In this document: piece by piece, positions 2,097 through 57,904 of the stretch
Numbering within the stretch: position 1 is the first letter of the stretch
Layout: every line of letters begins with the position of its first letter
From: Heterodontus francisci
Lineage: Eukaryota
Assembly (NCBI RefSeq): GCF_036365525.1
Contig: NC_090373.1
Coordinates: 13,383,935 to 13,447,934, forward strand
Reading direction: 5' to 3'
Length of the DNA: 64,000 nt
Program-made: the position numbers and the translations under genes
Notes under the pieces: model-generated
Databases searched by the model: none
The model's input: the letters and a program-made list of their open reading frames with translations, nothing else
What the model was told of the DNA's origin: nothing

Positions 2097-4705
2097 CATG
2101 TCTTTTTTTTCAGGATATGTGATTATTGATTCACTGGAATGAAATCTTTTCTGATTCCCTAACCTTGACTAAATCCCTTCCTTTTTAAGTGTGTACAAGA
2201 TGTCCTTGCAGGAGTCACTTTAAAAAAAAATCACATGAAACATGAATGGTTATTGGACAAATGATTCGCAGGCAACGTTTGAAATAGGCATGGGAACAAA
2301 ATGAAGCAACATCATGTTGAAAGTGGCCAAGTAAAAGAAAAGGGCGAATGCCAGAAACCAGGAAGGAAATGGAATGGTGGAAATAACCCAAACTGTGAAT
2401 TTATCTTTTCACTTACAGATGCTGACCAAGCTGCTGCTCCTTTCCAGCAACTTTTTTAAAAATTGCACGTTGAAGCCAGGGTGTTGAAAATCTGCAGCCC
2501 CAGAATGTACCTGGCCATATCCTCTGGTATTGACCTTGCCCGAAGTTTGCACAGTCGAGGAGTCATCACCCAAGGTAAATCTCACAGCATCTCGGACACC
2601 CGCCAGTTCCAAGAGGCTGCAGAGTATGCCAGGTTCAGACATTGTCAGAACTTACACCAGGCAAGATCTTCACCTTGTTTGTAAAATCCAATGCTGACGG
2701 TCCAAACCTGGAACCCCATGTGGGTCCCACATCTAGATCTCCAGTGACGCCTGCTTCAGATCTGCATACCGACCACTAATGCTTTGTCCAATGTATTGCA
2801 AGCCAGGGCTGGCAGAATTCAGCCTGGGAGTACCCACCTTGGCCACATTGCTCCCCCTGACCCTTCACTGCCAGTCTTGATTGAGGCTGGCGCAGTCTCT
2901 GCCCTTGCACGACCCTGTATAAACTGCCTGGTAAGGCTAAGACCTGGTATAGCTTAGTCTCAGCCTAACCTAAGGCCCCGAAGACAGATTTACAGCAGGG
3001 TTGTGTTAGAAGGGCTGTGGATTTTGGACCCAGACAGCCTTGGTTACCAGCTTAAGTAGGTGAGCCTCTGGCCATCATCAGCTTGACTGGAAAGTTAACG
3101 GGAATAAGGGAGGGAACAAGAAGAAAAATAGGAAAGCAAAGAAGGGGAGGACACGATTATCCAAAAGGTGCTAATATACCAGTGACAGTGATTATAATAA
3201 CTTTATATGCAACCCCAACTCACTGCTCTAAAGGAATTTAGGTACTCAGCTGAATAAAGCTTTTACATCACAGGGTATGCTTCAGCCAGGCCCTAAGCTG
3301 CTGGTGGGGATCCAATTTGCAGGTGGAAGTGGTCAAAATACAGTGATGTTTCAATCCTGGTTGTCTCAGTGGTGGAGAAAATATTTCAATTGCAGTGAAG
3401 CCATGGGTGAGAAATCTTCATTTATGTTCAATGGTTGACTGGGGCTCAAGCCCAAGATAGCTAGGAGCCTCTTTAAATTATAATCACAAGGTTATATACA
3501 TAAATGAGGTTTCGCTTCACCTCTGGGGAAGTTACGGCAGTGGAAAGCGAACAGCTCTGGGGAAATCACTGGTCATTTACAACGTGCTCTTGATAGTTTG
3601 CAGTCTTTTGCATGAAAAAAAAATCAAATTATCCAGTAATTCAAATCACCCAATGCAATTAAAATGTCAGAGCTAAAAGTAAGTGCAAAATATGAACTAC
3701 CTTGTCATACAAATGAATCAACTGTGAATCAAAAGGAGTACAGCATAATAGCAGTTCAAACTCAGTTAAGCTGTGTGCTTCAATCACCTTCAGTAGTAAC
3801 TTATTCCACAGCACTTATTATCCTTATTATAGGTGAACTATAAGTTCAAATAGGTATATACCAGTTGTAGGTGAAATAACCATCCATTTTCCCCCTCACT
3901 TTAACTTGCATCCCTTGTACTCTAACCCTTTGAAATGACTCTTGCAGCCCTACCAACATCCTATTTAATTATACAGCATAGTAGTTTCCATATCCTGATG
4001 GTCATAGCCATCTGGGTGGGCAGTAGCTAATTTGGGGCGGAAACTAGTAATGCCAAATCCCCACCCTTTTATGTCCATCAGAATTTCTGGCCAATGATAG
4101 GAGGGGGCATATAATGACAGCATGCAAATGAGGGAAATATGTCACACAATGTGTGTTCCTTCAGTTGCACACTCACACTACTTGCTACAAGGGACACATC
4201 CTTGGTATAGAGTTGCTAAGGGCCATCATAGATGGGAGTGGATGGGGGCGGGGAGTGGAAATAAGATAATAGACTTAAAATTTGATGGGATAGTTTTACT
4301 AGTACAATCAATCATGGAATTACTGATTGCTGCACAGAAACCACCATATCTTAAAAAAAAAAGTTCTTATTTAAAAAATGCCTTTGTAAATATTGGAGCC
4401 AAGCCACTTACGCTGTGGCAAGTGTCAAAGTAACTTTCCACTCCATCCCAGGCAGGCTTACCCAGTTGTGCGATGAACAGCCCTAAATATGCAAATCCTC
4501 TTGACTTCACAAAGTGGGGCAGAGTTGGGGAGCTTCGATGGGAGGGGCAGAAGTTACACATGGCCCACTCCCAACCCCAGATCCATCCCCCAAAAGCCTT
4601 CTCTCCAGTGAGATTTCTGGCCTGATAATTTGTTACACAGTTGACACTGTAGATATTGTTAACTATAAGCTTTAGAGTAAACCAAAGCTCTTCAAAGTGA
4701 CTTAC

Positions 4706-56443: not shown

Positions 56444-56479
56444 TTTTGCATATATAAAAGGCCTAACACCTGTTACAGA

Positions 56480-57585
56480 TGGGGCCTTACCAAATTCATG
56501 CCTTGAGAAATGCGTCATGGACTGTGAAATCGGCTATTTTGCGAACTTTGCGTGTTTTATTGATTGACACAAGGCTCACCTCACTGACCGCTAGGCATGT
56601 TGCGAACATCACACATTTTAGTGATTGACACAAAGCTTACTTCATTGGTAGATGAGGGAAAGCTTCTGGTGCAGTTTTGAGAGAAGCATTCTCAAGAATT
56701 AGCGGACAAGTGAGAATGCCCAGAATGAGCACATCAAAAACAGCCACAATCATTACTGCAACACATCGAGTGAAAGATTTTGGAAGCCAAATTCTGCATG
56801 CCGATGGTGGAATAATCTTTTGTACAAGCTGCAATTATTTGTTAGATCACACTTGGCGGGCAACGGTTCAGTGCTACTTAGAATCCAAAAGCCATTGCAG
56901 CAGAAAGAGAGCATCCGACACTGCACTGCTGGAAAACAAATAGGCAAAAAAGCAAGCAACAATTTCATCTCTTTTTAAGGAGTCGACAGAGAGCTCAGAA
57001 AATCGTCAGCTGGTTACAATGGAACGTGTGGATGCTTTTGCAAGCGCCAACATGCCATTGGAAAAACCTGCTCACTTGCAAAGTTGCAAGTATTCATTCA
57101 ATGTAATGTGCACAATGTTGGCTGCTTGGGAGGTGTAAATAAACTATGACAGGACTAACTACCGAAGGTTTTTGCTACATGTTGTGAGGAGATGCAAAAT
57201 TCCCCAAGACTAGCACGACACTGTCCGACAATTCCACAAACTCTGTGGACGCGGAGAGAGCTGTGTCTAAACACAAACAGGTGTTCACACAGGCGCAGAG
57301 ACAGGGAACAGGGAAAGAGATGGTTGCAGGTTGCTCCATGCTCGCATTCAACCACTGACTTCGGTGAATAAAGAATGTGACCTGTTTAAAGTCAGCTTTT
57401 TACAATAGTTTTTGCATTTACAATAAACGCTATTTGAAACCAGAAATCTCCTTTGCGTTTTTTTTTTGCTTTAAATAGATCATTTTCATGGTTTGTTGCT
57501 ACCCCATGAAATTTATGAATTAAATGTGAAATCATGAAATTCACCATTCTTAAAATGCCGTGACTGTGAATTTGGTCGAGCCCTA
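56480..57585 (+). mobile_element. hAT DNA transposon of the CGGBP-related type, internally deleted
   Basis: TIRs tggggccttaccaaattcat / gtgaatttggtcgagcccta (15 of 20 match). Degenerate 8-bp TSD gttacaga / gttgtagg with three transitions. Contains a CGGBP1-like N-terminus joined to a hAT dimerisation motif. Confidence 0.85.
56716..57355 (+). pseudogene. CGGBP1-like zf-BED/DNA-binding module fused to hAT C-terminal dimerisation domain (catalytic core deleted)
   Basis: SKTATIITATHRVKDFGSQILHADGGIIFCTSCNYLLDHTWRATVQCYLESKSH, KKQATI, ANMPLEKPAH, VHNVGCL...L*QD*LPKVF, then TNSVDAERAVS. Three in-frame stops and two frameshifts; AATAAA at 57367. Confidence 0.85.
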
Positions 57586-57904
57586 GTTGTAGGCGACCAG
57601 CCCAGACGCCTGAAAATTGTCCACAGTCAATACTGCCACGATGATGACCATTTTCAACCCCATTATTTATGGATTGGATGGCCTATTTTTCCTCCTCAGA
57701 AGGGGAAATAATCTCCTAACTTGCATTTGAAGAAAAACAGAGACATTGTCTCATATATGACAGCAGGACTAAGGATGTGATAGTGCCTTTATTGCAAACA
57801 CATGACTGAACTGGCCCTACTGTTTGCATGGGAAGGATAACACTTTTGTGTTTGCTACTGACCTTTCCTGCTTTCTATGGCAAACTGCAGATGATAAACA
57901 GGAA

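What the first reader, a model, noticed from the sequence alone, without database searches (positions are those of the whole stretch)
56480..57585. 1.1-kb hAT deletion derivative that keeps essentially a CGGBP1-sized DNA-binding protein
Seen: TIRs, a degenerate 8-bp TSD, an ATG at 56716, a CGGBP1-like N-terminal region and an abrupt jump near 57190-57200 to the hAT dimerisation motif (TNSVDAERAVS), then AATAAA. From memory, the N-terminal region aligns end to end with human CGGBP1: SKTALYVT..RV.EFG..LH.DGG..FCTSCN..L.H, KKQ, ANIPLEKADH, LRRAYLP. Established: CGGBP1 is a domesticated, catalytically truncated hAT transposase. Inference: this element lost its DDE core at about the point where amniote CGGBP1 ends. 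That leaves a DNA-binding plus dimerisation 'mini-transposase' that could have acted as a dominant-negative repressor, like P-element KP, and a ready substrate for domestication. This copy is dead (three stops, two frameshifts), but the family consensus may not be.
Basis: partly seen in the sequence, partly recalled or inferred. Interest (0 to 1): 0.72.

Follow-up and report, generated by a model that had tools for sequence, protein, structure and literature searches.

The report
Decayed shortened CGGBP-type hAT transposon
This is a broken, internally shortened copy of an old cut-and-paste transposon whose remaining front end resembles the human DNA-binding protein CGGBP1; it was likely spread passively by full-length relatives, shows no sign of being a working gene, and is an ordinary kind of transposon relic.

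Summary
The element is real: 1,106 bp, hAT terminal repeats, 90% identical to a 2.3-kb family whose consensus encodes a 597-aa Hermes-fold transposase. The family's first ~150 residues are 41% identical to mammalian CGGBP1. The deletion removes two of three catalytic acids and cuts near where CGGBP1 ends. That motif carries the catalytic Glu; the predicted dimer interface is in the retained N-terminus. A commoner sister junction (J2) is in frame (216 aa). All deletion groups decay neutrally (dN/dS about 1), and the four junctions counted are outnumbered by undeleted copies (39 versus 123 exact 18-mers). One oddity remains: 17 of 32 internally deleted copies break within 34 bases just after the DNA-binding region. 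An 11-bp internal inverted repeat or nested descent could explain this; KP-like selection is not excluded (about 12%). The family is a cousin, not the parent, of CGGBP1. The scan reported a similar relic in another genome. Two near-full-length open copies under purifying selection are the better lead.

The parts
56472..56479 (.). left 8-bp target-site copy (degenerate)
   Evidence: GTTACAGA vs GTTGTAGG, 5 of 8; weak alone
56480..56500 (+). left terminal inverted repeat (family repeat 22 bp)
56536..56647 (+). two 51-nt subterminal direct repeats, period 61; one- and two-unit variants occur in the family
   Evidence: D1, 76%
56725..56900 (+). decayed BED-type zinc-finger coding region (family start codon 56725; C-x2-C kept, first His lost)
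   Evidence: BED label from atlas neighbours and PMC8097297
56944..57194 (+). decayed Hermes-type DNA-binding / intertwined dimerisation region (transposase residues about 75-156); +2 frameshift at 57076, stops at 57147 and 57156
57192..57194 (+). deletion junction J1: 3-base ATG microhomology joining consensus 733-736 to 1891-1894; 1,157 bases lost, out of frame
57195..57358 (+). C-terminal remnant of the transposase gene with the catalytic Glu codon (57254-57256) and the transposase stop (57356-57358); out of frame in the J1 consensus
57422..57427 (+). AATAAA, also present in the family consensus
57564..57585 (+). right terminal inverted repeat
57586..57593 (.). right 8-bp target-site copy (degenerate)

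Best explanation
This is a dead, non-autonomous deletion derivative of a 2.3-kb CGGBP-type hAT transposon, likely formed by microhomology joining during interrupted gap repair, likely copied a few times in trans by full-length transposase, and decaying since with no sign of selection. Shown: parent family, junction, frame, lesions, neutral substitution pattern. Inferred: how the deletion arose, and that spread depended on the intact ends and not on the encoded protein. The CGGBP1 size is a by-product of where the cut fell; breakpoints of several sister derivatives cluster there, most likely through a deletion-prone site (an internal inverted repeat) and partly nested descent.
For: Parent: consensus of 40 pieces from 26 loci is 2,310 bp with one 597-aa ORF; a natural open copy (L267) folds like Hermes (pLDDT 89; Foldseek E 1e-10; VIA Z 24.4, rmsd 3.3, 377 aligned). 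Window is 991/1097 identical to the joined consensus. J1 is shared by L001, L002, L008, L068, L077 (L069 unclear), with a shared C678T in 5 of 5 vs 5 of 87 others: one founder. Natural open J1 copy L008/L058 reads into the shifted frame. dN/dS of the N-terminal region vs consensus: J1 1.29, J2 1.03, J3 0.94, J4 1.33, J6 1.35, J7 1.01, full-length 1.12, window 1.15 (Fisher P=1.0 for the window). Most junctions show 2-3-base microhomologies; J3 and J5 are blunt or 1-base. Two-base microhomology is described for P-element deletions from gap repair (PMC5991514 passages). One of the three longest exact non-terminal inverted repeats (11 bp) has arms at 761-771 and 1835-1845, just inside the breakpoint clusters; duplex -13.1 kcal/mol, best partner among 270 overlapping windows, top 1.2% of 3,000 random pairs.
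Against: 17 of 32 internally deleted copies in the end-anchored sample break at 730-763, from at least three independent founders (J2 group, J3, J4); scan test P=0.028 over 24 distinct events, but P=0.37 for the 19 from the end-anchored sample alone. The inverted repeat was found after the fact and two such repeats in the ORF are only about three times the shuffled mean (0.69). Neutral decay after insertion does not exclude selection while the subfamily was amplifying. Two J1 copies (window, L002) have different private deletions that restore the frame.
Confidence: 0.82

Rival explanations
1. KP-like repressor: derivatives that kept the whole zinc-finger plus dimerisation region (J1-J4, J6) were favoured because their short protein would bind the subterminal repeats or pair with full-length transposase and damp transposition.
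For: Breakpoint clustering right after the DNA-binding region (17 of 32 copies); all amplified junctions near there would give 168-220-aa products with the region intact; promoter-side sequence and AATAAA retained. Residues 76-160 of L267 are predicted to self-pair: score 0.62, best of 3 controls 0.32, runs agree in 100% of contacts, pLDDT at least 74; mark reached by 21 of 30 microbial pairs and 0 of 23 single chains, on eukaryotes 17 of 29 but 1 of 7 without an older solved relative, so the pass may be from memory of the Hermes dimer.
Against: Exact 18-mer counts: undeleted 123, J4 18, J2 16, J3 4 (control 2), J1 1; PMC5991514 cites a need for about 30 repressor copies per full-length P element and found preferential mobilisation instead. 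Frame of the tail is mixed (J2, J5, L062 in; J1, J3, J4, J6 out). The one clear J1-diagnostic coding change alters a nearly invariant Ala. 13 of 24 events could be nested in one founder. Hotspot alternative.
Confidence: 0.12
2. This locus is, or was, a domesticated CGGBP-like host gene.
For: [quoted passage not shown]
Against: Three stops, three frameshifts and a lost zinc ligand; dN/dS 1.15. About 2% of neutral copies keep 155 codons open by chance, enough to explain the short annotated ORFs.
Confidence: 0.02
3. J1 did not arise from a full-length parent but is a 14-base slippage product of the in-frame J2 derivative (between two ATGs), so the window copy descends from a true in-frame fusion.
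For: J1 lies inside J2 (733/1891 vs 735/1879), with ATG repeats at both ends of the 14 bases.
Against: J1 copies lack the variants carried by about 60-75% of J2 copies (positions 101, 229, 243, 727: 0 of 4-5); the same ATG microhomology exists in the full-length parent. This changes the history, not the verdict.
Confidence: 0.04

Closest known systems
CGGBP-type hAT transposons (mainly hAT-19 subclass; e.g. hAT-13_LCh, hAT-19_Crp) and CGGBP host proteins (Yellan et al. 2021, PMC8097297)
   Same: Bipartite BED finger plus Hermes-type DNA-binding region; family N-terminus 41% to mammalian CGGBP1 (E 2e-34 pairwise), 69% to coelacanth H3A0T3, 60% to a tortoise protein.
   Different: This is a mobile deletion derivative, not a host gene; the family does not group with amniote CGGBP1. 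No Repbase library was available, so the subfamily name is untested.
Non-autonomous internal deletion derivatives of DNA transposons (Ds-type, recalled; microhomology-derived MITE families, PMC3814204 abstract)
   Same: Both ends kept, middle lost, short microhomology at the junction, several derivative families from one parent, 8-bp TSDs.
   Different: Longer than a typical MITE, keeps 156 codons, and full-length copies outnumber the derivatives counted.
P-element KP repressor (PMC5427502, PMC5991514 passages)
   Same: Would encode the DNA-binding and dimerisation N-terminus plus a short frameshifted tail (tail of KP recalled).
   Different: No expression or repression shown, no purifying selection, minority of copies; different superfamily.
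Hermes transposase (PDB 4D1Q, 8EDG, 6DWZ; PMC10368747 passages)
   Same: Fold of the parent transposase; BED, intertwined dimerisation domain, RNase-H core order.
   Different: 13-15% identity; the derivative lacks the core.

Membership tests
hAT superfamily | Short terminal inverted repeats | tested here: met
   22-bp perfect repeat in consensus; 224 exact 20-mer hits, control 0
hAT superfamily | 8-bp target-site duplication | tested here: met
   Family: 40 of 51 rows at 6 or more of 8; window copy alone 5 of 8, inconclusive
hAT superfamily | Transposase with hAT C-terminal region and Hermes-like DDE fold (parent) | tested here: met
   PF05699 above cut-off in L267, L268, L269; Hermes top fold hit; D171, D243, E567 columns conserved
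CGGBP-type (hAT-19-like) group | N-terminus homologous to CGGBP1 end to end | tested here: met
   CGGBP1 13-155 vs transposase 2-149; profile hit to the CGGBP1 cluster representative P0021, E 9e-36; atlas first hit 'CGGBP1-like' 0.98
CGGBP-type (hAT-19-like) group | Match to the PANTHER CGGBP1 model or a Repbase hAT-19 consensus | not testable with these tools
   Neither library is held
Domesticated CGGBP host gene | Open reading frame with both Cys and both His zinc ligands | tested here: not met
   Stops, frameshifts, His to Tyr
Domesticated CGGBP host gene | Purifying selection | tested here: not met
   dN/dS 1.15 over 128 codons
Domesticated CGGBP host gene | Transcription of the locus | tested here: inconclusive
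   No RNA holder listed; contig data cannot show absence
KP-like repressor element | Retains DNA-binding and dimerisation coding region, loses catalysis (subfamily consensus) | tested here: met
   J1 out of frame; met only by J2, J5 and L062
KP-like repressor element | Protein represses transposition | not testable with these tools
   Needs a cell assay
KP-like repressor element | High abundance relative to full-length copies | tested here: not met
   39 vs 123 exact 18-mers for the four junctions counted

The most novel reading that the evidence does not exclude
In this genome a CGGBP-type hAT repeatedly and independently threw off mobile derivatives (J1-J4, J6) cut at the very boundary where CGGBP1 ends, and these spread because their 170-220-aa DNA-binding dimer repressed the parent: a vertebrate hAT counterpart of KP and a ready route to the many independently domesticated CGGBP genes.
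Probability: 0.12. Interest if true: 0.6.

Novelty: new member of a known kind. Interest (0 to 1): 0.22.

Why it matters
As found, little: an old non-autonomous hAT copy, and repeated capture of this exact protein region is already in print (PMC8097297). If the breakpoint cluster proved to be selected or built into the element's sequence, it would explain why CGGBP-sized proteins arise again and again from this hAT group, and would give a testable vertebrate example of self-repression by deletion derivatives. The side result, near-full-length copies with open frames, lost catalytic residues and dN/dS of 0.14-0.64, points to candidate host genes worth their own check.

Tried and rejected
Pfam on the window's pieces: nothing relevant. 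PDB sequence searches with L083 and L267: no relevant hit. Fold search with the 162-aa model (pLDDT 73, pTM 0.43): no match at E<=0.001, only weak zinc-finger likeness. Word-based protein searches did not retrieve amniote CGGBP1; the profile search did. RNA: no RNA holder listed for the window; three contig sets of one sample, RNA only by guess, gave only pieces of about 40 nt or less on the element among those shown, which is no evidence either way. Splicing as the source of the junctions rejected: deleted parts lack GT-AG ends and J3/J4 keep the GTGAGT site. The first BLAST-pileup consensus showed two false frameshifts, removed by MAFFT. J3 was first entered with wrong coordinates and corrected to out of frame, 180 aa. 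L069 and L062 were first grouped with J1; L062 is a different, in-frame junction. A 1.1-kb insert at the J2 junction of L271 is an unrelated single insertion. Literature: a search for internally deleted hAT dominant negatives gave one irrelevant paper; hAT-19 with shark gave nothing specific in the 20 listed; six searches in all, so absence from print is not shown. The supplement of PMC8097297 yielded only figure text; its species table may bear on whether this family is catalogued.

Full report
Observation. The window holds a 1,106-bp element at 56480-57585 with inverted ends. Three-frame translation shows a CGGBP-like start in frame 1, a middle stretch in frame 3 and the TNSVDAERAVS motif in frame 2. 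A DNA search of the own genome G000 (6.0 Gb; 40 of 2,120 candidates scored) returned copies at about 80% identity, some collinear over the whole length and many stopping at query base 715. Coordinates prefixed c refer to the family consensus.

The parent. From 26 longer loci I built a consensus, first by pile-up and then by MAFFT of 40 pieces: 2,310 bp, a perfect 22-bp terminal repeat, one ORF of 597 aa from c269. Family TSDs are 8 bp: 40 of 51 rows with both ends match at 6 or more of 8 (one element counted twice), whereas the window's 5 of 8 is reached by 22% of mismatched pairs. A natural open copy, L267 (579 aa), hits PF05699 above cut-off, and its model (pLDDT 89) matches Hermes first (E 1.2e-10; Z 24.4, rmsd 3.3, 377 aligned). 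Integrase cores align from about residue 166 to the end of the model, so the C-terminal motif belongs to the catalytic fold; its Glu is kept in 19 of the 23 rows that reach it. That this Glu is the third catalytic residue is recalled knowledge of hAT enzymes.

CGGBP1 link. A profile of 12 N-terminal sequences found 1,188 proteins at E<=0.001; the cluster of P0021 is mammalian CGGBP1. CGGBP1 13-155 aligns with transposase 2-149 at 41%, the window's first piece at 46% over 63 aa. CGGBP1 has 12 further residues, so it ends near transposase residue 161; the window's deletion cuts after residue 156. In a tree of 35 rows chosen from the hits, amniote CGGBP1 groups with P0037 and P0084 (99/98), while this family sits elsewhere with coelacanth and tortoise proteins (93/75, not starred). 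It is a cousin, not the donor. Yellan et al. (PMC8097297; I read parts 1-2 of 3 of the text and searched the supplement) already report dozens of independent captures of this region, mostly from hAT-19.

The junction. Split alignment maps the window's deletion to c733-736 / c1891-1894 with ATG on both sides. Five loci share it clearly (L001, L002, L008, L068, L077; L069 unclear) and share C678T, 5 of 5 against 5 of 87, so it is not unique to this copy. It removes 1,157 bases, which is out of frame: the product would be 183 aa ending in a nonsense tail, as the naturally open copy L008/L058 reads. L008, L068 and L077 have no further indel there; the window and L002 each have different private deletions that restore the frame. 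The window copy also has three stops, +2 and -1 frameshifts, a private base that brings ATG 56716 into frame, and a lost zinc-ligand His.

Sister derivatives. To avoid bias I sampled by the terminal repeat: 224 exact hits, 100 listed, 90 loci examined (30, 60 fetched; the other 10 listed places were mostly second ends of elements already held). Of 32 loci with a resolved deletion over 500 bases, 6 were J2 (c735/1879, in frame, 216 aa), 8 J4 (c761/2038, out), 2 J6 (c730/1933, out), 1 at c757/2025, and 15 broke elsewhere; none was J1 or J3. Flanks of 1.5-2 kb can hide junctions behind nested insertions. Exact 18-mer counts were 123 undeleted, 18 J4, 16 J2, 4 J3 (control 2) and 1 J1.

Selection. 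Counting changes from the consensus (CpG codons left out, transition weight 3.5), dN/dS in residues 1-154 is 0.94-1.35 for all six deletion groups, 1.12 for 31 full-length-type copies and 1.15 for the window. All groups are 6.5-8.3% diverged at non-CpG sites, so derivatives and parents are of similar age. At 0.025 disruptions per codon, 2% of copies keep 155 codons open by chance, which can account for the short ORFs that NCBI names CGGBP1-like.

The open question. Left breakpoints of the amplified derivatives fall at c730-763, between the end of the DNA-binding region and the first catalytic Asp (c779). Six of 24 distinct events lie in 32 bases (P=0.028), but 4 of 19 in the end-anchored subset (P=0.37), and 13 of 24 could be nested in one founder. 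J2, J3 and J4 need separate origins because each keeps bases the others lack. A mutational account is available: an 11-bp inverted repeat at c761-771 / c1835-1845 sits just inside both clusters, the geometry expected if synthesis skips a hairpin; this was found after the fact and is modest. A selective account is also coherent: residues 76-160 of L267 are predicted to self-pair (0.62 vs best control 0.32; 21 of 30 and 0 of 23 in the microbial calibration, 17 of 29 in eukaryotes and 1 of 7 without an older relative; contacts agree 100%, pLDDT at least 74; alignment not used; possibly memory of the Hermes dimer), in line with the intertwined dimerisation domain that follows the BED finger in Hermes (PMC10368747 passages). 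KP encodes such a truncated repressor (PMC5427502 passages). But PMC5991514 (passages) cites a 30-fold excess as needed for full suppression and found preferential mobilisation instead; here the derivatives counted are the minority.

Verdict. An ordinary, neutrally decaying non-autonomous hAT copy of the CGGBP-type group; new as a family member, not as a kind. The KP-like reading keeps about 12%. The stronger lead lies outside the window: L267 and L268 keep 579- and 666-aa frames open (chance about 4e-7 per copy at 579 codons), have dN/dS 0.14-0.64 (Fisher P 2e-4 and 1e-3) and have each lost a catalytic acid.

Noticed in passing
L267:2841-5125 (G000:C32): Full-length copy with both ends and a 579-aa open frame, dN/dS 0.37-0.40, catalytic Glu replaced; contigs of runs X1-X3 (RNA by guess, one sample) match it exactly in pieces up to about 200 nt, with a shared loose end at 3226. 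Candidate domesticated gene.
   Followed up: partly
L268:2555-4983 (G000:C41): 666-aa open frame with a partial duplication of the DNA-binding region, first catalytic Asp replaced by Asn, dN/dS 0.14 (N-terminus) and 0.64 (core); held by NCBI as an uncharacterised protein (P0014).
   Followed up: partly
L269:568-2136 (G000:C266): 522-aa open core on a small contig, dN/dS 0.44 in the core but 1.04 with a stop in the N-terminus.
   Followed up: partly
P0004, P0011: Coelacanth (69%) and tortoise (60%) proteins are far closer to this family than other hits, which may point to horizontal spread among vertebrates; support for the clade is only 93/75 and no donor test was run.
   Followed up: partly
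P0037: A 634-aa unnamed transposase-like protein groups with amniote CGGBP1 (99/98) and may be nearer its true parent family.
   Followed up: no
L270:1667-2562 (P0002): A different in-frame deletion (c695/2016) gives an open 157-aa protein that NCBI names CGGBP1-like; dN/dS 0.99.
   Followed up: partly
window 56536-56647: The 61-base subterminal unit occurs once or twice within most junction groups, so its number is unstable or copies recombine.
   Followed up: partly
L271:2290-3420: An unrelated 1.1-kb element with its own inverted ends sits at the J2 junction; single occurrence among fetched loci.
   Followed up: partly
window 1-64000: Ten stop-to-stop frames of 150 aa or more, none with a Pfam hit at E<=0.001; no host gene context found.
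   Followed up: partly
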